64,000 nucleotides of DNA. Source: a virus (lineage: Duplodnaviria > Heunggongvirae > Uroviricota > Caudoviricetes). The translations under genes were made by a program, and so were the position numbers. Shown here piece after piece: positions 3,007 to 32,135 of the stretch; the first letter of the stretch is position 1, and each line of letters opens with the position of its first letter. Under the pieces are notes generated by a model, which searched no databases, had not been told where the DNA came from, and worked only from the letters and a program-made list of their open reading frames with translations. The stretch lies in the IMG/VR virus record IMGVR_UViG_2563366911_000001. One strand, given 5' to 3'.

Positions 3007-3077
3007 CCTGTCACCTACTGATTAGCCCATGTCAACTAATCAACGTGGAATATAATACCCTCGATTAAAGAAATAGC

Positions 3078-3096
3078 AATACATTAGAGCAATTTT
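3078..3096 (-). promoter_or_regulatory. C1-type operator-like site (ATTGCTCTAATGTATT) upstream of the lpa-like gene
   Basis: 13 of 17 match to the operator consensus; contains -35-like TTGCTC. Confidence 0.4.
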
Positions 3097-4138
3097 ATCT
3101 AACGCTCGACGAGTGACTTGTGATAGCGCCGACTCCAAGCGCGTAATCAAAGAACAATCGTTGATGCATCGCCAGCCTACCGTGCGTCTTCTCCCAATTA
3201 TCGCGGTCACGCTCAATATCACGCTGGCATGACTGGCACAGAGGAATTGCGTAAATGTCATGCGCGCATAATCGACTATGACGAACGATATAAGGCGTAA
3301 TGTGAGCGCCAGCTCCCGCCGCTCCACACCCACAGCATGGACGGGAAGCAACAAAGTCCATGTACTCAGGTAATTTTAGCGATTGCAGTTTTGGTATTTT
3401 GAAATGCGCCATGCCAGGGTCGGAGTCAACATCCACAGGGCATACTTTTTCACGCATCGGCGCGGCGCGTTCTTCCATCATCTGAACATATGCTGTAGCG
3501 CGATCGTCATACGGGCGAATATCCGCCTCTTTCAGAGGTCCGCTATCCTGCGTTGCGGCTTTCATCTTATTTATTGATATACGGCAAACTTCTTCCGGCA
3601 TCAGGTGCATCATGTTGCGCATGAAAGCCCACCAGCACAGTTCCTGAATACTTAAATCATGGCCATCTGAAAGCCCCATTTCCTGACGGGCGACATCCAG
3701 TATCCAGTTAACGCGATTATTATGCAGCGTTTCTTTCAGCTCATTAAAACCACGCATCCGGTAATGGTTATCGTGATGCCAGCACAACAACACCGCGCTA
3801 TTGTCTCGTTCTGCGTGGACAATATGGTTGTCACACCAGCTACGATCTGCGGCCTGGCATTGCCCCTCTTTCCTGCGCAACCACGCCACCAGCGCGTCAA
3901 TTCCACCAATACGGCGAAACAGTTCATCGCTGTTAAAAAACGGCTGCAACGCCTCATTTGTTGCCATAGTTTGCTCGGAAACAACGAGGCCGTCGTCCAT
4001 GTGCTCGATTAACTCACGCGGCACCGGCTCCATAATAAATTTACGGCCAGCCTCCACCAGCTTTCTGACTTCCTGATCCACTTTGAATGTGGCGACGCCA
4101 AGCTCTTTTTGTACAAAGGGAGTAATTACGGCTTTCAC
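3095..4138 (-). CDS. Hypothetical protein, 347 aa, Cys/His-rich C-terminus (possible Zn-binding or HNH-like)
   Basis: Long ORF; C-terminal CCGCG...H...C...C-x2-C cluster. Confidence 0.7.
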
Positions 4139-4165: not shown

Positions 4166-4366
4166 TTATCTGCTGCCCGGCATTCTCTGTTTAAGCACAA
4201 CCATTTCCTGACGGCATAACACAGCAATAGCAGTCCTGGCTCCAATTTGCTTACCAACCAGGTATTGCTTTACCTCGCGGCGACTCACGCCATCAAGAAG
4301 CATCTTTAACGCTTCACGGGACAATTTGTTGTATTTGCGTGCCATTAATCTACTCCGCAGAACCAT
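4166..4366 (-). CDS. Small basic hypothetical protein (about 59-66 aa)
   Basis: Short ORF immediately downstream of doc; start uncertain. Confidence 0.4.
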
Positions 4367-4730
4367 ACAATCTACGCAACGTGTCGGCGACAGAAGATAC
4401 AGATATCTCGCCAGTCGCAGCGCCTACAGTAAGGTCTGCCAGTTCAGGTGAATCAAATACCTGCACCCCGTTACGGCGTAGAAATAGCAGCGCGCTGTTT
4501 AGCGCGGTACGCTTATTGGCATCATTGAATATATGCCCTCTCGCTGTAGCCACCAGGTAGGTGGCGGAGACTTCGAAAAGGTCGGTGATCTCTTCGTAGG
4601 CAACTCTGGCCTGAACTCTCCCGATAATGGCCTCTGCCCTGCCCGGATCTGACATGCCAGGCAGGCCGCCGTAGCGGCTTATATTCGCATCATGAAGCGC
4701 AATAAGTTCTTCCGGTGATATATGCCTCAT
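4350..4730 (-). CDS. doc: Doc toxin (Fic/Doc family), 126 aa
   Basis: [26 protein letters not shown]-terminus and [11 protein letters not shown] Fic-type motif; start overlaps phd stop. Confidence 0.9.
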
Positions 4731-4957
4731 TATCGGTTAACCAGTTCCTTGTTGGTGGAGTCCAGGGTGTCAAACAGGGATGCAAATTCAGCATCCAGCG
4801 CCGCTTTTTTGTAGGCTTCGAAAGTAGCCTTGCTGACAATTACTGCTGGCTCACGGCCTCTGCGGGTGATTTCAACCTCTTCCCCGGCTTCAACATTGTT
4901 GAGCACTTCAGAAAGGTTGCCGCGCGCGGTACGGAAGTTAATGGATTGCATAAACAC
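4730..4957 (-). CDS. phd: Phd antitoxin (probable start at 4951, 73 aa)
   Basis: [32 protein letters not shown]; translationally coupled to doc. Confidence 0.9.
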
Positions 4958-5023
4958 CTCGTGTACTCGTTATGTGTACACAATTATAAACCTCACAGGC
5001 ATAAAGCACCAGCCCTTTGCAGC

Positions 5024-5413
5024 TTAAATAACCGGACAATCATCAAACTCCCCACTTCGGGCATCATTGATGACATGAGTGATCACACCAAAAACAGCAT
5101 TACTGCCCGTGCATCCATCGTCATCTACTGGTAACGCCTCTTTCTTCCCGGTGCTTAAATCCTCCAGGTGCTGGCGCGGATACTTCCTGTATCTCTTTAT
5201 GCGATATTCACCCTCCATAGCGCACACAAGCAGCGAACCATCAACTGGAGTAAGCGAAGAATCAACCACCAGCAAAGCACCCTGCAATATTCCCTCACGG
5301 TGATGGCTATCAGCTGCCCGCATGAAGTAGGTTGCTGATGGATGTCTAATTATCTGCTGATCAAGAGAAATTCGGCTTTCAACATAATCCGCCGCAGGAG
5401 AAGGGAAACCCAT
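5024..5413 (-). CDS. humD: UmuD'-like S24 peptidase (HumD-like), 129 aa
   Basis: GFPSPAADYVE...HPSATYFMRA matches UmuD without its N-terminal 20 residues; LexA box upstream. Confidence 0.85.
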   Translation of the reverse strand: MGFPSPAADYVESRISLDQQIIRHPSATYFMRAADSHHREGILQGALLVVDSSLTPVDGSLLVCAMEGEYRIKRYRKYPRQHLEDLSTGKKEALPVDDDGCTGSNAVFGVITHVINDARSGEFDDCPVI

Positions 5414-5431
5414 AGCGTTTTACCTCAAAAA

Positions 5432-5451
5432 TACTGTTTATCTGTACAGTA
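5432..5451. promoter_or_regulatory. LexA (SOS) box TACTGT-N8-ACAGTA in the divergent promoter region
   Basis: tactgtttatctgtacagta: CTGT-N8-ACAG core, 19 bp upstream of humD start and 137 bp upstream of the 5588 gene. Confidence 0.7.
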
Positions 5452-5587
5452 TACATTAAAGAAGCACCTTTGGTGCAAACGCGTTATGTACATCAACCAC
5501 CGCTGATGATTTTTGTGCGCTTTGCTACTATTCATCACCGCGGGATCAGCGTAACCTCGTTGCCAATCAGTTAATAAGGAATTAGCT

Positions 5588-6172
5588 ATGCCTAATCGCA
5601 TTCCTCTCGATCCTGTATTGCCCAAAAATTTTGACTGCACTCCTAACGAGAAACGCTCTAAAGCTCAGCTGGACGCCTGGTGGGACCATCCATATGGGGT
5701 TACACAACCTGACGGGAAAATTGTAGTTTATTGTCTGAATGGTGGGGCGTGGGACCGTCCATCCGTGCTTTGTTTGGCAGATAACTATGATGAAGCCTGT
5801 GAACTTGCCGAAAGACAGCAGGCAAGCTGGGTAAAAACACGGTCTGAACCGACATTCATGTTTTCAAAAGAACCGCCATTTATACTGGCGAGGATGCCGC
5901 AGCGACCGGATCATCAACAAGAAATTGTTGCTGAATTTTCCTCAAGGGATGAGATGAATCTCTTCTCATTAAAGCAGGAAGAAAGGGATCGCGTCGAAGT
6001 GTCTCCAACTCTCGACCACAACCGGATGAACCTGGCCCAGCTCGCCTGGTACAGCAAAGAATTAGAGATGTCTATTTCCCGGCTTGAAAACGAAAAAGCC
6101 GCTATCCAAGTCCAGCACGAAGTAGTTCTGAACCGGATTAGAGAAATGCAAAACGATAACAGGGGATTTTGA
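5588..6172 (+). CDS. Hypothetical protein, 194 aa
   Basis: ORF divergent from humD; coiled-coil-like C-terminus; no domain recognised. Confidence 0.6.
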   Translation: MPNRIPLDPVLPKNFDCTPNEKRSKAQLDAWWDHPYGVTQPDGKIVVYCLNGGAWDRPSVLCLADNYDEACELAERQQASWVKTRSEPTFMFSKEPPFILARMPQRPDHQQEIVAEFSSRDEMNLFSLKQEERDRVEVSPTLDHNRMNLAQLAWYSKELEMSISRLENEKAAIQVQHEVVLNRIREMQNDNRGF

Positions 6173-6529
6173 ATGGCTAAAATCGAGTACCATCGCGATC
6201 GCGGTAATTACCTGGAAATATACGATCATGAATCTCTTAACGATATCAACGATGCGTTATATGAATACTGTGAAAAAACGAGCATCACAGATGCACCTGA
6301 TGCATTTGTCGAGCTGCCGGTATATCTCCGCGACATCTATGCAATACGAACACCGCCCGTATCGGTGATTCACATTGGCTATGTCCGCCTGTCCATCAAA
6401 GAAGATGAAGATCGTTATATCGTGCGCCACTATACATTGGACAGAAAAGAACTTCCTAATGAATGGAACATGAGTAATTTCTACAACGGTGAATATGGCT
6501 TAAAATCCGCTAATAATTTACGGTCATAA
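6173..6529 (+). CDS. Hypothetical protein, 118 aa, adjacent to the 194-aa gene
   Basis: ATG 1 nt after preceding stop; no domain recognised. Confidence 0.6.
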   Translation: MAKIEYHRDRGNYLEIYDHESLNDINDALYEYCEKTSITDAPDAFVELPVYLRDIYAIRTPPVSVIHIGYVRLSIKEDEDRYIVRHYTLDRKELPNEWNMSNFYNGEYGLKSANNLRS

Positions 6530-6655
6530 TCTATACAGGCATGTATAACAACAATGAGCCTATTAGCTGTCAACAACGTTATTTTCTCAAATAAGAAAAA
6601 GCAGAAAACAAATTGTTTAAGGTCACAAATTGTGGCCTTGATGGAGGAGGGAGGC

Positions 6656-6870
6656 TTATTGGCTATGGCTAAAAATCAAATTAGACACTTCATGTTGCTG
6701 TAGCTCATCAAGATCCGAGGCCACAAAACCTTTTCCGAAAAACTTCACAAGTAACTCACTAGCCGCATCATTGTCACCTATTACACGAAAGTCATACGGC
6801 AACGTCGCAAGCTGACGATGTAATCCTGCTGAGAAAGTCGAATCTAACAGCGCCCAGAATTCCCACCGCA
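6656..6870 (-). pseudogene. Possible C-terminal gene remnant (about 70 codons, no in-frame start)
   Basis: Frame reads ...ILRWEFWALLDSTFSAGLHRQLATLPYDFRVIGDNDAASELLVKFFGKGFVASDLDELQQHEVSNLIFSHSQ-stop, preceded by an in-frame stop and AT-rich non-coding DNA. Confidence 0.3.
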
Positions 6871-7391
6871 GGATAATACTCGCCTCTTAATACTGTATAT
6901 ATGTTGTTACGATATGTTTTTCTGTCTCTAAAAAAAGATGTTAATAGAATGCTAACCATTGAAGGGGATAAAAATATACAATTCCAACAAACGTTATTTT
7001 TAACAATTTTTTTCTTTGCGTTGACTTTCCCGGACACCTTGTCTGACCGAAGGTGCGCGAAAGCCACTTTTTCCTTCCTGAGTTATCCACAAAGTTATGC
7101 ACTTGCAAGAGGGCCATTTTCTACATATTGTGGTGGCTAACAGATGAAATGAATGTAGATTAATTGAAGATAAGGAGAAAATTTGAGATGCAATCATGAC
7201 GTTAATAGATAGGGTCTGCATTACAGACCCCACCCGCATCAAGGAATTAGCCGTTCCCTGATGTTTTTCCGAAAACATGTGCCGTAAGCTCACGTTAACG
7301 ACTTTCATTCACCGAATCCAACTATATAGGGGTTGGGTTTCTACGTCAACGTGAGCAAGTGCACCTTTACATTTGACAAGGAACCACCTGA

Positions 7392-7529
7392 ATGAACGCT
7401 TTTTTTCAGTTCCTGAGTGCATTTTTAGATGCGCCTATTATTAGCCAGATTCTGGCTATTATCCTCATCATCGTTTTGATTTTGCTTTTAAGGTCAGTAA
7501 AAGATGGAATTATGCACTGGCTTACTTAA
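7392..7529 (+). CDS. Small hydrophobic peptide, 45 aa, single predicted TM helix
   Basis: ATG 9 nt after AAGGA; MNAFFQFLSAFLDAPIISQILAIILIIVLILLLRSVKDGIMHWLT; followed by palindrome aatgtttcagtgaaacatt; below the ORF-track length cut-off. Confidence 0.4.
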   Translation: MNAFFQFLSAFLDAPIISQILAIILIIVLILLLRSVKDGIMHWLT

Positions 7530-7604
7530 TGTTTCAGTGAAACATTAAAATCTCCTTGATGTGGAAACAATCATTTTCTGTATGTGCTGGTGGGCACCTG
7601 TAGT

Positions 7605-7967
7605 TCAGCTTTCGTTGACATTTAACTTCGTCTTTGCTTTCTCCACCAGCAACTTCCAGATGCCTATTTCATTAGCAGCCGCCTTGATGGCGGCATAAAA
7701 AGCATCTTGCTGATCGTAACGCTGGATCTGTTTTTTCAGTTTTGCCTCCACCAATTTAATTTCATTACGTGCTTTCTGAAGCCGCATCACCGCCCGGTTA
7801 CGTCTGTTCTTGTATAGCGTGTTAATCTCTGACAATTGTTTTAATTTGCCAGCCTGACTGCGGATTATCGCCTCCCTGGCTTCTGCCGTGCGTCTCATCT
7901 GATCTCTTAAGAGTTCACCGTTTTCGATAATTCTTTCAAGGTGTTTGATGTGATCTGCAACTCTCAT
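7605..7967 (-). CDS. Hypothetical coiled-coil protein, 120 aa
   Basis: ORF, last gene of the long minus-strand block. Confidence 0.6.
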   Translation of the reverse strand: MRVADHIKHLERIIENGELLRDQMRRTAEAREAIIRSQAGKLKQLSEINTLYKNRRNRAVMRLQKARNEIKLVEAKLKKQIQRYDQQDAFYAAIKAAANEIGIWKLLVEKAKTKLNVNES

Positions 7968-8638
7968 ACTTCACCCTCGCTTGTATCACCAGCGTCCACC
8001 AACGACAATAAAGCCCTGGCCATCTTATGAACCAACAGTGCATCAATAATGCCAAGCGTATGCCCCGGCTTAATGTTTAATGCCGCCTCAAGGTGACACC
8101 TTTCCAGGTCACTTTTCTCGGCTTGTTTATGATGATCTGGCGTAATAACGTCGCCCAAAACACGGCTAATTCTTTCTCGTAATTGCTGGGTGCCAGCACA
8201 CTTGATCGCTGTATCGTGGAGACGGTTAACCAGTTCGCGATAAACATGCGGCTTAATGCGGATACGTTCACCGGTGACGCCCTTTCCTGGCGCTGGCACC
8301 GAACTATCCGGAATATCCGGATAGTTGCCAGCCTCGTAAGCTACCCGCAGCCAGTGCATGAATGTTTCAGTGGACACACAACCACAGTCCACATCGATTT
8401 TTCCGCGTTGCTGTTCCAGCCACTGCTCAAAATTCAATCTACACGTATTACTTTCATGTTGCTCTTTTTGTCTCAAGGCCAGCACCTGTTGGGCCAGTTC
8501 CAGAACGATACCGGGTGACGCTAACCTCTCAAATTCCAATAAATAGTTTGCGTCAGGATGACAAGTAGCCTCGCCTGCAAAAAATACCAATTGCTGTAAG
8601 TATGCTGTCGTTAGAGTAGTCATTTCTTTTTGCGCCAT
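7964..8638 (-). CDS. Hypothetical protein, 224 aa
   Basis: ORF with 4-nt overlap to the downstream gene. Confidence 0.6.
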   Translation of the reverse strand: MAQKEMTTLTTAYLQQLVFFAGEATCHPDANYLLEFERLASPGIVLELAQQVLALRQKEQHESNTCRLNFEQWLEQQRGKIDVDCGCVSTETFMHWLRVAYEAGNYPDIPDSSVPAPGKGVTGERIRIKPHVYRELVNRLHDTAIKCAGTQQLRERISRVLGDVITPDHHKQAEKSDLERCHLEAALNIKPGHTLGIIDALLVHKMARALLSLVDAGDTSEGEV

Positions 8639-8994
8639 TTCTTTTCACATTCCTTAGTCCATTTTTCAATGTTCATTTTGGCAATATCGGTCATTCCATC
8701 ACCTAAGAAATACTTTCTCCGGTATGTCTTGCACTTAAACCACACTACAACAGCCACCAGCCAGAAAATAAAAGGCCATACAGCAATACCAACGACAGCC
8801 GCGATAAAGCCCAATATCCATAAATGAAGCTCTCCAACTTCTGTTTCCGGCAATATTCTTAAAGAATTAAACAGCAGGCTGAACGAATGGTCGTATGCAT
8901 TGGCAGTATAAGACATGCAATCCATATAATTAAAGTCATAGCCTGCGGCTGCCGCCCATAATGGGCGGTCAAGAAAATGTTTTAGTGTCATCAT
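8620..8994 (-). CDS. Small membrane protein, 124 aa
   Basis: Hydrophobic segment ILGFIAAVVGIAVWPFIFWLVAVVVWF, Lys-rich C-terminus. Confidence 0.55.
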   Translation of the reverse strand: MMTLKHFLDRPLWAAAAGYDFNYMDCMSYTANAYDHSFSLLFNSLRILPETEVGELHLWILGFIAAVVGIAVWPFIFWLVAVVVWFKCKTYRRKYFLGDGMTDIAKMNIEKWTKECEKKWRKKK

Positions 8995-9000
8995 ATAAAT

Positions 9001-32089: not shown

Positions 32090-32135
32090 ATTCATTGAGG
32101 CGATATTACACTAATAAATTTATTAGAGCAATATA
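32090..32135 (-). promoter_or_regulatory. Overlapping palindromic C1-type operators with promoter TTGCTC-17-TAATAT for the tRNA/SPFH/ban operon
   Basis: ATTACACTAATAAATTT (plus) and ATTGCTCTAATAAATT (minus) overlap at 32105-32132. Confidence 0.6.

What the first reader, a model, noticed from the sequence alone, without database searches (positions are those of the whole stretch)
6530..7604. AT-rich non-coding island with gene remnant, nested palindromes and a 45-aa hydrophobic ORF
About 1 kb between the SOS-regulated pair and the minus-strand block has no long ORF. It contains a C-terminal fragment of a decayed gene (6656-6870, no start), palindromes (AAACAAATTGTTTAA overlapping GGTCACAAATTGTGGCC near 6605-6640; AATGTTTCAGTGAAACATT at 7528-7546) and a ribosome-binding-site-preceded 45-codon ORF for a single-TM peptide (7392-7529). 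The architecture resembles a type I toxin or small membrane effector locus, or a scar of cargo exchange.
Basis: seen in the sequence. Interest (0 to 1): 0.5.

Follow-up and report, generated by a model that had tools for sequence, protein, structure and literature searches.

The report
Recombination scar plus conserved small-peptide cassette
This 1-kb "gap" in a P7/P1-type phage-plasmid has two parts: a dead recombination scar, and a conserved cassette that uses a promoter copied from the host's nrdA gene, a tightly conserved RNA leader holding an opposite-strand promoter, and a 45-residue membrane peptide, which looks like an undescribed antisense-controlled toxin-type module that nobody has tested.

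Summary
The interval is AT-rich (39.3% GC against 47.4%). It contains a C-terminal gene fragment, the stated palindromes, and a 45-codon membrane ORF with a ribosome-binding site.

The window is a P7/SJ46-like P1-family phage-plasmid, and the interval has two parts.

- **6530-6992 is a scar.** It holds the last 66 codons of a 174-aa gene that is intact in phage PhiR41_1, with that gene's terminator-like palindromes. It also holds a relic of a second humD start with half a LexA box. P7 carries IS903 here; this window has the empty site.
- **6993-7604 is a conserved cassette** found in three clades of two phage-plasmid families.
  - About 130 bp come from the E. coli nrdA promoter. The two DnaA boxes and the -35 are 100% identical to E. 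coli in all clades.
  - A leader of about 253 nt follows. Its 187-nt core evolves about five times slower than neutral sites.
  - An invariant minus-strand sigma-70 promoter sits inside that core.
  - The 45-aa ORF is intact in all 19 sequence variants (dN/dS about 0.45).

The minus-strand genes annotated in P1 and P7 (upfM/N/O, upf91.x) are not conserved.

Best reading: an antisense-controlled small membrane peptide, similar in layout to hok/sok or ldr/rdl, whose transcription is tied to host DnaA. Toxicity and the antisense RNA are untested. The main rival is that the minus-strand promoter simply serves the hot gene.

The parts
6606..6637 (.). Two adjacent palindromes (AAACAAATTGTTT at 6606-6618; GGTCACAAATTGTGGCC at 6621-6637). 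They form a terminator-like 3' flank of the decayed minus-strand gene, lying between it and the convergent upf93.6.
   Evidence: Sequence read. The core ACAAATTGT occurs at 6608 and 6625. The stretch lies within the 90%-identical DNA shared with PhiR41_1 downstream of XSB42472. On the minus strand the hairpins are followed by a U-rich tract (read from the sequence; inference).
6656..6867 (-). Remnant of a 174-aa gene. It keeps the C-terminal 66 codons and the stop codon and has no start codon.
   Evidence: tblastn of PhiR41_1 XSB42472 gives 88% identity over residues 109-174, E 9e-38. blastn matches 6603-6867 at 90%. The full-length protein has no Pfam hit.
6784..6792 (.). CACGAAAGT, the 9-bp target that is duplicated on either side of IS903 in phage P7. 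This window holds the uninterrupted (empty) site.
   Evidence: P7 alignment breakpoints and flanking sequence.
6868..6992 (-). Relic of a second humD 5' end and its operator. About three humD codons remain, the start codon is destroyed, and half of the LexA box is deleted (TACTGTATAT remains at 6891-6900). AT-rich spacer follows.
   Evidence: Alignment with the humD start and LexA box of phage Cyrano shows a 13-bp and an 11-bp deletion in the window. blastn matches 6873-7107 to Cyrano at 82%.
6993..7131 (+). Promoter derived from the E. coli nrdA upstream region. DnaA box 1 is TTATCCACA at 7083-7091, DnaA box 2 is TTATGCACT at 7095-7103, the -35 is TTGCAA at 7103-7108, and the -10 is TATTGT at 7126-7131 after a 17-nt spacer. 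The inferred transcription start is near 7139.
   Evidence: 94.6% identity to E. coli over 130 bp. The sub-stretch 7040-7121 (82 bp) matches all 5426 complete E. coli genomes, upstream of nrdA. GenBank M95666 annotates it as 'nrdA-like promoter' with a 'dnaA box' on this strand. The 26 bp at 7083-7108 are 100% identical to E. coli in all clades. Between clades K is 0.13 against about 0.4 for neutral sites.
7139..7391 (+). Predicted 5' leader of the peptide mRNA. Its fast-evolving 5' end (7132-7169) carries indels. The 187-nt core (7170-7356) is constrained. The last part (7357-7391) is variable and carries the SD.
   Evidence: Segment identities. K for the core is 0.097, against 0.38-0.48 in flanking non-coding DNA and dS of 0.49-0.77 in neighbouring genes. 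The fold has a z-score of -4.75.
7174..7200 (+). Upstream SD-like element (AAGGAG) followed by a mini-ORF, ATG CAA TCA TGA. In the pYLPM7a-type clade it is ATG TAA. It sits in a 22-nt block that is invariant.
   Evidence: Alignments. The consensus fold pairs 7173-7180 with 7404-7414 inside the ORF. Its role is inferred.
7212..7230 (+). Hairpin H1, GGGUCUG-CAUUA-CAGACCC.
   Evidence: It carries the one clean compensatory change, U-A to C-G at 7215/7227.
7238..7262 (+). Hairpin H2, AUCA-GGAAU...GUUCC-UGAU. The loop sequence varies between clades while the stem does not.
7288..7356 (+). Long hairpin H3 (arms GCTCACGTTAACG and CGTCAACGTGAGC) enclosing an inner hairpin at 7314-7340. It overlaps the antisense promoter.
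   Evidence: Inverted repeat I2, 92% complementary. Consensus folds. The C-G to U-G change at 7289/7355 keeps the pair only on the + strand.
7321..7349 (-). Antisense sigma-70 promoter, TTGACG-17-TATAGT (10 of 12 consensus matches). The inferred start is near 7313-7314, reading leftwards through the leader core.
   Evidence: It is the top promoter-like site in the window, in P1 and in pYLPM7a. Both hexamers are invariant in all 19 variants. The P1 record predicted it as 'PupfN'.
7200..7314 (-). Predicted cis-antisense RNA body. The 3' end is unknown because no canonical terminator was found.
   Evidence: The fold of 7190-7314(-) gives -44.5 kcal/mol with a z-score of -4.13. No terminator-like site was found on this strand.
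7392..7529 (+). 45-aa single-pass membrane peptide gene, MNAFFQFLSAFLDAPIISQILAIILIIVLILLLRSVKDGIMHWLT, with SD AAGGA at 7378-7382.
   Evidence: Intact and 45 codons long in 19 unique variants; dN/dS 0.43-0.45 between clades. Annotated as J46_0085 in SJ46 and as WP_000123562.1 in RefSeq P1-type plasmids. Hydropathy.
7528..7546 (.). Palindrome AATGTTTCAGTGAAACATT, overlapping the ORF stop codon. It is a hairpin at the 3' end of the ORF and has no U-tract.
   Evidence: Seen as a self-match. In the pYLPM7a-type clade it is kept only as a weaker hairpin.

Best explanation
The interval is composite.

**Left part, 6530-6992.** This is non-functional debris from repeated cargo exchange in a known variable region of P1-like phage-plasmids. 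It holds the 3' third of a 174-aa gene with its terminator hairpins, fused to a relic of a second humD start and half a LexA box.

**Right part, 6993-7604.** This is a conserved cassette with four components:
1. A promoter copied from the host nrdA gene. It keeps the upstream region, the two DnaA boxes and the -35, but not the NrdR boxes.
2. An mRNA with a leader of about 253 nt.
3. A 187-nt leader core that folds into three hairpins and contains, on the other strand, a strong sigma-70 promoter. RNA from that promoter is perfectly complementary to the leader.
4. A 45-aa single-pass inner-membrane peptide encoded downstream.

**Most likely mechanism (inferred).** This is an antisense-controlled, type I toxin-antitoxin-like module built like hok/sok or ldr/rdl. 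The cis-antisense RNA pairs with the leader and keeps the peptide mRNA untranslated or unstable. In addition, the SD (AAGGAA) can be sequestered by GUUCCU in codons 6-8, and the invariant upstream AAGGAG element can compete for that same sequence. Transcription of the peptide mRNA follows host DnaA status rather than the phage C1 repressor or LexA.

**Shown here:**
- the homologies;
- the conservation pattern and substitution rates;
- the integrity of the ORF;
- the presence and invariance of both promoters' hexamers.

**Inferred:**
- that both promoters fire;
- the ends of the RNAs;
- antisense repression;
- any toxicity or biological role, such as addiction, abortive infection or a replication-stress response.

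**How the confidence splits.** The composite anatomy (a scar plus a conserved promoter-leader-peptide cassette) is about 0.85. The type I toxin-antitoxin-like mechanism is about 0.4. The figure given is for the statement as a whole.
For: **Identity of the region**
- 99.5-99.6% to P7 and SJ46 over 6400-7700.
- Annotations of P1, P7, M95666 and SJ46.

**Scar**
- Gene remnant.
- humD/LexA relic.
- IS903 empty site with a 9-bp target duplication in P7.
- The region is listed among the hypervariable regions of P1-like phage-plasmids (PMC9603915).

**Promoter**
- 130 bp at 94.6% to the E. coli nrdA upstream region; its sub-stretch 7040-7121 matches every one of 5426 complete E. coli genomes.
- DnaA boxes plus -35 are 100% identical to E. 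coli in all three clades, although neutral divergence between clades is about 0.4-0.5.
- The same promoter also sits in front of different cargo in phage Cyrano.

**Leader**
- K is 0.097 in 7170-7356, against 0.38-0.48 in adjacent non-coding DNA and dS of 0.49-0.77 in hot, humD and the ORF.
- Substitutions fall in loops and linkers or keep base pairs, with one compensatory pair.
- Folding z-scores are -4.75 on the + strand and -4.13 on the - strand.

**Antisense promoter**
- 10 of 12 consensus matches, the best promoter-like site in each clade, with invariant hexamers.

**ORF**
- Intact, indel-free and 45 codons long in 19 variants, with synonymous changes within clades and dN/dS 0.43-0.45 between clades.
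- SD retained with a different sequence in the third clade.
- Strongly hydrophobic, with positive charges after the membrane segment.

**Other points**
- The minus-strand ORFs upfM/N/O are not conserved.
- No C1 operator lies in the region, so the cassette is not obviously silenced in the prophage.
- In Cyrano, a different small-toxin-like unit (a weak AgrB-like hit plus a 27-aa hydrophobic ORF) occupies the same slot.
Against: - No transcript, translation or toxicity data exist for either strand, and I found no paper on this locus.
- No canonical terminator follows the antisense promoter. In P1 and pYLPM7a-type elements the hot gene lies downstream on that strand, so the promoter may simply be hot's sigma-70 promoter.
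- Covariation support for the RNA structure is thin. There is one clean compensatory pair, and most pairs never vary.
- The peptide matches no known toxin family in Pfam, PHROGs or NCBIfam and does not align with Ldr. Rfam finds no known antitoxin RNA.
- The -10 of the nrdA-like promoter is weak (TATTGT; TACTGT or TACCGT in the third clade).
- dN/dS of 0.45 indicates only moderate constraint.
- In one plasmid lineage the ORF is cut after codon 31 by a different cargo junction.
- upfN and upfO were non-essential for P1 plaque formation in a CRISPRi screen. A deletion survey cited there lists upfM, upfN and upfO as non-essential; upfM was not tested by CRISPRi (PMC10695390). This is compatible with an accessory module but gives no positive support.
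Confidence: 0.5

Rival explanations
1. The 45-aa ORF encodes a harmless small membrane protein, for example an accessory modulator expressed with host replication genes. The minus-strand promoter is the lysogenic sigma-70 promoter of the hot (Pol III theta homologue) operon. The antisense overlap would then be a by-product of two face-to-face promoters, giving at most mutual transcriptional interference rather than a toxin-antitoxin pair. In this window hot has been lost, so the promoter reads into debris.
For: - hot lies downstream of the minus-strand promoter in P1 and pYLPM7a-type elements, with no terminator-like site in between.
- The P1 record treats upfM-upfN-upfO-hot as leftward genes with predicted promoters.
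- hot is absent from this window.
- The peptide resembles no known toxin.
- Many small membrane proteins are not toxins (general knowledge).
Against: - The conserved block ends sharply at 7170 and 7356. It does not continue towards hot: the stretch 7132-7169 between the core and the DnaA boxes is the least conserved, at 52% identity with indels.
- Several predicted helices are rich in G-U pairs and form only on the + strand.
- The invariant SD-ATG block at 7174-7191 makes sense only on the + strand.
Confidence: 0.3
2. The real genes are the minus-strand ORFs of the classical annotations (P1 upfM, upfN, upfO; P7 upf91.3-91.7), and the plus-strand 45-codon ORF is a chance reading frame.
For: These ORFs are annotated in NC_005856 and AF503408, and minus-strand promoters are predicted there.
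Against: - upfM is absent from the pYLPM7a-type clade.
- upfN is 65 aa in P1, 102 aa in this window and 31-42 aa with a different C-terminus in the third clade. A 1-nt indel shifts its frame.
- The plus-strand ORF, by contrast, keeps its length, start, SD and hydrophobic pattern in all 19 variants.
- PGAP and the SJ46 authors call the plus-strand ORF.
Confidence: 0.04
3. The conserved block works at the DNA level. The DnaA boxes and neighbouring sequence would titrate or recruit DnaA (or Fis/IHF) for replication control or prophage maintenance, or would serve as a recombination hot spot with the host chromosome. The ORF and the RNAs would be incidental.
For: - The 26-bp block of DnaA boxes and -35 is perfectly conserved.
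- The block neighbours replication and repair genes (hot, humD).
- The P7-type copy is 93% identical to E. coli upstream of the boxes, against 71% in P1. This suggests ongoing exchange with the chromosome.
Against: - The strongest and longest constraint (187 nt, K 0.097) lies 80-270 bp downstream of the boxes and contains no DnaA box.
- The known P1 origins lie elsewhere (general knowledge of oriR and oriL).
- The ORF's reading frame is preserved across 25% nucleotide divergence.
Confidence: 0.07
4. The whole 1-kb interval is decaying junk between functional blocks, and all the features in it are chance.
For: - The left half really is debris.
- P7 tolerates an IS903 insertion in it.
- The region is dispensable for lytic growth (PMC10695390).
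Against: - The right half is retained in 229 PLSDB plasmids at 80% query coverage or more.
- It is also present in 216 of 5426 complete E. coli genomes.
- It is shared by two different phage-plasmid families.
- Its substitution rates are about five times below neutral in the leader core, and the ORF is preserved.
Confidence: 0.03

Closest known systems
hok/sok (plasmid R1 parB) type I toxin-antitoxin
   Same: - A small single-pass membrane peptide (45 aa here; Hok is about 50 aa, from my own knowledge).
- An mRNA of about 400 nt with a long structured leader.
- A strong antisense promoter inside the leader, well upstream of the toxin start.
- A predicted hairpin that sequesters the SD.
- An upstream translation-initiation element.
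- A possible 5'-3' fold-back (CATCAAGGA at 7238 with TCCTTGATG at 7551).
- Carried by a plasmid-state element next to another addiction system (phd-doc).
   Different: - No sequence homology to Hok/Gef (Pfam).
- No mok-like ORF overlaps the toxin start. The upstream ORFs end 130 nt or more before it.
- The antisense RNA has no clear terminator.
- The fold-back is not significant on its own, since about 0.3 such 9-mers are expected by chance, and it is only partly kept in the third clade.
- The toxin promoter is a copy of a host promoter with DnaA boxes.
ldr/rdl (long direct repeat) type I toxin-antitoxin loci of E. coli
   Same: The antisense RNA is encoded opposite the 5' untranslated region rather than the coding region. 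The peptide is small and hydrophobic, with an Ala-Pro motif ahead of the membrane segment (my own recollection of Ldr sequences, so a lead only).
   Different: BLASTP finds no alignment with LdrA as I recalled it. There is no Pfam Ldr_toxin hit and no Rfam hit. ldr/rdl is chromosomal and arranged in repeats, whereas this cassette is a single copy on phage-plasmids.
E. coli nrdAB promoter
   Same: 94.6% identity over about 130 bp, covering the upstream AT-rich region, both DnaA boxes and the -35 TTGCAA. The orientation towards a downstream gene is preserved.
   Different: Homology stops in the spacer before the -10. The -10 differs (TATTGT against TATCTT). The functional NrdR boxes 1 and 2, which lie downstream of the promoter in E. 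coli (PMC12176259), are not included. The promoter drives a 45-aa peptide mRNA instead of ribonucleotide reductase.
P1 upfM-upfN-upfO / P7 upf91.3-upf91.7 annotated region
   Same: It is the same DNA: 92-96% identical to P1 and 99.6% to P7. The nrdA-like promoter, the DnaA boxes and 'PupfN' were already noted in those records.
   Different: Comparative evidence does not support those minus-strand reading frames and supports the unannotated plus-strand ORF instead. This window lacks hot (present in P1) and IS903 (present in P7).
dinQ/agrB-type loci (compared through phage Cyrano)
   Same: Cyrano occupies the same genomic slot (right of humD, behind the same nrdA-like promoter) with a small hydrophobic ORF, a repeat-based arrangement of sRNA and target, and a weak AgrB hit.
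   Different: No homology links Cyrano's unit to this window's leader or peptide beyond a shared 10-mer. Here the antisense RNA is cis-encoded, not trans-acting through a repeat.

Membership tests
Type I toxin-antitoxin system (generic) | A small (<60 aa) hydrophobic protein with a predicted transmembrane helix | tested here: met
   45 aa, GRAVY 1.56, hydrophobic core at residues 19-33, positive residues after it. The ORF is conserved in 19 variants.
Type I toxin-antitoxin system (generic) | An antisense RNA gene complementary to the toxin mRNA | tested here: inconclusive
   There is an invariant 10/12 sigma-70 promoter on the opposite strand inside the leader, and the predicted RNA is well structured. 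No terminator was found and there are no expression data. The transcript may instead continue to hot.
Type I toxin-antitoxin system (generic) | Overexpression of the peptide is toxic or growth-arresting | not testable with these tools
   This needs inducible expression in E. coli.
Type I toxin-antitoxin system (generic) | The RNA antitoxin represses toxin translation or destabilises its mRNA | not testable with these tools
   This needs genetics and Northern blots. Only complementarity can be shown here, and it is perfect because the RNA is cis-encoded.
Hok/Gef family (hok/sok) | Sequence homology of the toxin to Hok/Gef | tested here: not met
   No Pfam hit at E <= 1 other than a chance viral match, and no NCBIfam hit.
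Hok/Gef family (hok/sok) | A mok-like leader ORF that overlaps the toxin start and couples its translation | tested here: not met
   The upstream small ORFs (7189-7200, 7196-7261, 7277-7354) end well before 7392. Their amino-acid changes track RNA-stem compensation, not coding constraint.
Hok/Gef family (hok/sok) | A match to the Sok antisense RNA or hok mRNA family in Rfam | tested here: not met
   There are no Rfam matches at E <= 1 over 5000-9000. At E <= 10 over 6950-7650 there are only chance-level hits.
Ldr/Fst toxin superfamily | Sequence homology of the toxin | tested here: not met
   BLASTP against LdrA (sequence from memory) gives no alignment. No Pfam hit.
E. coli nrdAB promoter (as a derived copy) | Nucleotide homology that includes both DnaA boxes and the -35 | tested here: met
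   94.6% over 130 bp. The 26 bp at 7083-7108 are 100% identical to E. coli. The matching E. coli DNA lies upstream of nrdA.
E. coli nrdAB promoter (as a derived copy) | NrdR boxes 1 and 2 downstream of the promoter | tested here: not met
   Homology ends before the -10, and identity downstream of the -10 is 21%. The position of the boxes is taken from PMC12176259.
E. coli nrdAB promoter (as a derived copy) | DnaA-dependent promoter activity | not testable with these tools
   This needs reporter fusions or DnaA footprinting.
P1 upfM/upfN/upfO protein-coding genes | A reading frame conserved among related elements | tested here: not met
   The minus-strand ORFs differ in length, start and C-terminus, or are absent, in the three clades.
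C1-controlled P1 operon | A C1 operator (ATTGCTCTAATAAATTT) at the promoter | tested here: not met
   The window has 10 operator-like sites at 3 or fewer mismatches. None lies between 3094 and 15920.

The most novel reading that the evidence does not exclude
The cassette is a previously undescribed type I toxin-antitoxin family specific to enterobacterial phage-plasmids. Its membrane toxin would be transcribed from a hijacked copy of the host nrdA promoter. The prophage would therefore read the host's DnaA and replication-initiation status directly, independently of LexA and of the phage repressor. When replication is perturbed or the antisense RNA is lost, the balance would tip towards membrane damage, giving a replication-stress-triggered addiction or abortive-infection switch.
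Probability: 0.25. Interest if true: 0.7.

Novelty: new member of a known kind. Interest (0 to 1): 0.45.

Why it matters
P1 is one of the most used and best annotated phages, yet the evidence here suggests that three of its long-standing "upf" genes are mis-called. The conserved elements of the region are instead a 45-aa membrane peptide on the other strand and a strongly constrained RNA leader with an internal antisense promoter.

About 4% of complete E. coli genomes carry the cassette on phage-plasmids that often also carry resistance genes.

If it is a toxin-antitoxin or stress switch driven by a captured host DnaA-box promoter, three things follow:
- It would be a second maintenance or defence module next to phd-doc.
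- It would be a clear case of a mobile element borrowing a host cell-cycle promoter.
- It would be a new small-toxin family that protein databases largely miss, because the ORF is only 45 codons long.

If it is not, the practical result is still a corrected annotation and a documented recombination scar.

Tried and rejected
**Searches that found nothing useful**
- Rfam on 5000-9000 at E <= 1 gave nothing. On 6950-7650 at E <= 10 it gave only chance-level hits: BsrG at 15 bits and a fungal snoRNA.
- Pfam, PHROGs and NCBIfam gave no family for the 45-aa peptide or its pYLPM7a-type variant.
- The word-indexed search of 5.8 billion proteins and full HMMER against 1.84 billion representatives returned only four truncated or frameshifted copies of the same gene.
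- Genome contigs gave no confirmed relative by peptide pattern and no hit to a 20-mer from the leader.
- Viral contigs and metagenome contigs returned only the same three clades. No further diversity was available for covariation analysis.

**Ideas tested and dropped**
- Kinship with Ldr: rejected by BLASTP.
- A C1 operator in the region: none found.
- NrdR control: rejected, because homology to nrdA stops before the -10 and the true boxes lie downstream of it.
- Homology between Cyrano's small-toxin leader and this leader: only a shared 10-mer.
- The upstream ORFs at 7196-7261 and 7277-7354 as leader peptides: rejected as coding, because the substitutions are almost all non-synonymous and pair up as stem compensation.
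- The 5'-3' fold-back (9 bp): kept only as a lead, since about 0.3 such matches are expected by chance in a 420-nt RNA.
- The IncFII 33-aa ORF: a possible distant relative, but it sits in a different operon-like context and shows no antisense architecture.

**Literature**
- No paper on this locus was found.
- The P1 genome paper and the paper on hot expression are not held in the library.
Full report
**What the window is**

The stretch 6400-7700 is 99.5-99.6% identical to phage P7 and to Salmonella phage SJ46. From 7053 rightwards it is 96% identical to phage P1. The neighbourhood is the P1/P7 block:
- doc (4350-4730, minus strand), phd (4730-4957, minus) and humD (5024-5413, minus);
- a LexA box;
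- a Lxr homologue (5588-6172, plus strand, 93% identical to P1 Lxr) and upf93.6 (6173-6529, plus);
- the interval under study;
- the pmgV homologue (7605-7967, minus).

A survey of P1-like phage-plasmids lists pmgT-humD among their hypervariable regions (PMC9603915).

**Checking the observation**

- GC content is 39.3% against 47.4% for the window, which puts it in the lowest 2.9% of equal-sized windows.
- No ORF longer than 102 aa is present, and none of the longer ones is conserved.
- The palindromes are at 6606-6618, 6621-6637 and 7528-7546.
- The shared core ACAAATTGT occurs twice, 17 bp apart. Its count in the window (3 against 0.91 expected) is reached in 5 of 100 shuffles, so it is not significant by itself.
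- The 45-codon ORF at 7392-7529 has SD AAGGA nine bases upstream of the ATG and encodes a strongly hydrophobic peptide.

**The left part (6530-6992) is a scar**

Minus-strand 6659-6856, with its stop at 6656-6658, encodes residues 109-174 of a 174-aa protein that is intact in phage PhiR41_1, next to that phage's umuD/humD homologue. Identity is 88% and E is 9e-38. DNA homology at 90% runs from 6603 to 6867. It therefore includes the two palindromes, which lie just downstream of the stop codon. On the minus strand they are followed by a U-rich tract. They are most simply the terminator of the decayed gene, shared with the convergent upf93.6 (the terminator role is inferred). The full-length protein has no Pfam family.

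Immediately to the right, 6873-6992 aligns with the humD start and LexA operator of phage Cyrano. A 13-bp deletion has removed the start codon, and an 11-bp deletion has removed half of the LexA box. This window has its own intact humD 1.5 kb to the left, so this is a relic of a second copy.

In P7, IS903 sits inside the remnant gene, flanked by a 9-bp duplication of CACGAAAGT. This window has the uninterrupted site at 6784-6792. The hot gene, which occupies this position in P1, is absent from the whole window.

All of this fits repeated replacement of cargo by recombination.

**The right part starts with a piece of the host chromosome**

Window 6993-7121 is 94.6% identical to the DNA upstream of E. 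coli nrdA. An 82-bp query from it (7040-7121) matches all 5426 complete E. coli genomes at 96-99%. The piece contains two DnaA boxes (TTATCCACA at 7083-7091 and TTATGCACT at 7095-7103) and the -35 TTGCAA (7103-7108). Homology fades in the spacer, and the -10 here is TATTGT (7126-7131).

GenBank M95666 already annotates this as an "nrdA-like promoter" with a DnaA box, pointing rightwards. The functional NrdR boxes of nrdAB lie downstream of the promoter (PMC12176259), so they are outside the captured piece. The 26 bp covering the boxes and the -35 are 100% identical to E. coli in the P7-type, P1-type and pYLPM7a-type clades. Upstream of the boxes, the P7-type copy is 93% identical to E. coli, P1 is 71% and pYLPM7a is 59%. 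This suggests an old capture, possibly refreshed by exchange with the host chromosome in the P7 lineage.

**Comparative material**

Searches of phage, plasmid, E. coli, viral-contig and metagenome collections gave 68 copies and 19 distinct sequences of 7030-7620. They fall into three clades:
- P7-type;
- P1-type (about 92% identical);
- a type found in roughly 110-kb phage-plasmids that carry metG and apbC, represented by pYLPM7a (about 77% identical). In these the block sits between hot and a type I restriction-modification operon.

The block is present at 80% query coverage or more in 229 PLSDB plasmids and in 216 of 5426 complete E. coli genomes. No more distant relatives were found.

**Which strand codes**

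The plus-strand ORF is 45 codons long, free of indels and open in all 19 variants.
- Within the P1-type clade the changes are synonymous (GCT to GCG, ATT to ATC).
- Between clades dS is 0.49 and dN is 0.22, giving dN/dS of 0.45.
- The N-terminal FFQFLSAFL-AP--SQ-LAI motif and the hydrophobic character are kept.
- The SD is kept with a different sequence (AAGGAA against GAGGAT).

The SJ46 authors and PGAP call this ORF (J46_0085 and WP_000123562.1).

The minus-strand genes of the classical annotations are not conserved. upfM has no counterpart in the third clade. upfN is 65, 102 or 31-42 aa long, with unrelated C-termini and a frame-shifting indel.

**The leader**

Neutral divergence between P1 and pYLPM7a can be calibrated from dS of hot (0.52), humD (0.77) and the 45-aa ORF (0.49). 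It can also be calibrated from adjacent non-coding DNA, where K is 0.38-0.48. Against that background:
- the promoter core has K = 0.13;
- the 187-nt leader core (7170-7356) has K = 0.097, about five times slower than neutral;
- the 38 nt between the -10 and the core are the least conserved, at 52% identity with an 18-column indel.

The core folds into three hairpins: H1 (7212-7230), H2 (7238-7262) and H3 (7288-7356, with an inner hairpin). The whole predicted mRNA folds with a z-score of -4.75. Substitutions fall in loops and linkers or keep pairing. One pair is truly compensatory (U-A to C-G at 7215/7227), and several changes are wobble-compatible only on the plus strand. Most pairs never vary, however, so the covariation evidence is thin. 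Only one clean double change supports the fold, and the shuffle controls are uninformative with three lineages.

A 22-nt block, GATAAGGAGAAAATTTGAGATG (7170-7191), is invariant. It is a strong SD followed by a start codon. The ORF it opens is three codons long (MQS), or a bare start-stop in the third clade.

In the consensus fold this AAGGAG element pairs with UUUC...UUCC in codons 4-8 of the peptide gene (7404-7414). In single-sequence folds the genuine SD pairs with the same GUUCCU. This suggests, but does not show, a competition that switches translation.

**The antisense promoter**

Inside H3, on the minus strand, lies TTGACG-17-TATAGT (7349-7321). It matches 10 of 12 consensus positions, is the best promoter-like site in each of the three clades, and both hexamers are invariant in all variants. 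The P1 record predicted it as "PupfN".

RNA starting near 7313 would be perfectly complementary to the leader, and the first 125 nt fold with a z-score of -4.13. No canonical terminator follows it.

In P1 and pYLPM7a-type elements, hot lies further along that strand. The promoter could therefore be hot's lysogenic promoter, which is the main rival reading. Against that, the constrained block stops abruptly at 7170 instead of continuing towards hot.

No C1 operator lies in or near the interval. No LexA box serves it either; the only one nearby is the half-deleted relic. The cassette is therefore not visibly under phage-repressor or SOS control.

**Mechanism proposed**

- *Shown:* a host-derived DnaA-box promoter, a constrained leader, an invariant opposite-strand promoter, and a conserved 45-aa membrane ORF.
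- *Inferred:* the nrdA-like promoter makes an mRNA of 400 nt or more. The cis-antisense RNA pairs with the leader and blocks translation or triggers decay. When released, the peptide inserts into the inner membrane. Expression follows host DnaA status.

This layout is that of type I toxin-antitoxin loci whose antisense RNA lies opposite the 5' leader, such as hok/sok and ldr/rdl.

Membership of those families is not supported. There is no homology to Hok, Ldr or any family in Pfam, PHROGs or NCBIfam, no Rfam match and no mok-like overlapping ORF.

**Circumstantial support**

Phage Cyrano has the same nrdA-like promoter at the same position but different cargo:
- an RNA unit of about 85 nt ending in a strong bidirectional terminator;
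- a weak full-length AgrB-like match on the other strand (27.6 bits, below Rfam's threshold);
- a 16-nt direct repeat linking that RNA to the leader of a 27-aa hydrophobic ORF.

The slot therefore seems to collect small-toxin-like units. The evidence for this is weak and was not pursued.

**What is known and what is new**

Already on record, in the GenBank records from 1993 and 2004, are the nrdA-like promoter, the DnaA boxes, the predicted minus-strand promoter and the "upf" ORFs. CRISPRi found upfN and upfO non-essential for lytic growth, and a deletion survey cited in that paper lists upfM, upfN and upfO as non-essential; upfM was not tested by CRISPRi (PMC10695390).

I found no paper that:
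- treats the plus-strand ORF, the leader or the antisense arrangement as a unit;
- describes a type I system in P1;
- contains the peptide sequence.

**Verdict**

The "scar" reading is right for the left 460 bp. The "small membrane peptide or type I-like locus" reading is plausible and now better founded for the right 600 bp, but no experiment supports it.

I rate the finding as moderately interesting. It corrects a classical annotation and gives a concrete, cheaply testable candidate for a new antisense-controlled small-peptide module driven by a captured host cell-cycle promoter.

Noticed in passing
L005 (phage Cyrano OV696614) 3060-3700: At the same position, right of humD, Cyrano has the same nrdA-like promoter but with the E. 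coli-type -10 (TATCTT). It is followed by about 85 nt and a strong bidirectional terminator (3270-3300). On the minus strand at 3267-3348 there is a weak full-length Rfam AgrB match (27.6 bits, E 0.52). A direct repeat TAAGTATCTGGCGACT occurs at 3339 and 3512. A 27-aa hydrophobic ORF, MVNLLFKIVPPMFAIIKAIIEYVNQRP (3601-3684), has its own SD and terminator. Together these look like a dinQ/agrB-style type I toxin-antitoxin locus. The peptide has no NCBIfam hit.
   Followed up: partly
L107 2492-2593 (K. pneumoniae IncFII plasmid pNDM4-191773); L108 (E. asburiae plasmid): An unannotated 33-aa ORF, MVLLLDAFLSAPLLSQCAATVFLLLLIWLKKME, with a good SD. It is 57% identical over 28 aa to the pYLPM7a-type 45-aa peptide (pairwise E 2e-10; database-wide E about 0.1). 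It occurs in Klebsiella, Enterobacter and Citrobacter IncFII plasmids. Its stop overlaps the start of a further small ORF, and a putative ~80-aa membrane-protein ORF lies further downstream. It may be a distant relative in a different context.
   Followed up: partly
window 6784-6792: This window carries the intact target site of the IS903 copy that interrupts the same relic gene in the reference P7 genome. In that respect the element here is a pre-insertion P7-like form.
   Followed up: yes
L131 (GCA_902846855.1 contig) 2501-2707: In one P1-type plasmid the 45-aa ORF is cut after codon 31, and the downstream DNA is replaced by different cargo (Ead/Ea22-like genes). The leader and hot are retained. 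A recombination junction can therefore fall inside the peptide gene. Three other database entries are frameshifted or truncated copies.
   Followed up: partly
window 6993-7082: The part of the nrdA-like region upstream of the DnaA boxes is 93% identical to E. coli in this P7-type element, but only 71% in P1 and 59% in pYLPM7a. This hints at later gene conversion with the host chromosome across this 130-bp homology.
   Followed up: partly
window 7132-7169: The stretch between the -10 and the conserved leader core is a hot spot of change. It is 79% identical even between P7-type and P1-type, whose flanks are 98% identical. The third clade has a 17-nt insertion, and one P7-type variant has a 4-nt insertion. 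I have no explanation for this.
   Followed up: no
window 4321-4329: A third copy of ACAAATTGT lies just downstream of the doc stop codon. It may be another small terminator hairpin of the same kind as those at 6608 and 6625.
   Followed up: no
window 6941-7117 (-): The mechanical 58-aa ORF here (P7 upf91.6) overlaps the nrdA-like DNA. It corresponds to the small E. coli ORF ypaB, which RefSeq annotates opposite the nrdA promoter. It is probably carried along with the captured promoter rather than being a gene of the phage.
   Followed up: no
window 3077-51531: Ten matches to the P1 C1 operator consensus at 3 or fewer mismatches, against 0.32 expected. One is a perfect site at 32116-32132 that overlaps a second site on the other strand. 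This confirms a P1-type immunity circuit across the window. None of the sites lies near the finding.
   Followed up: no
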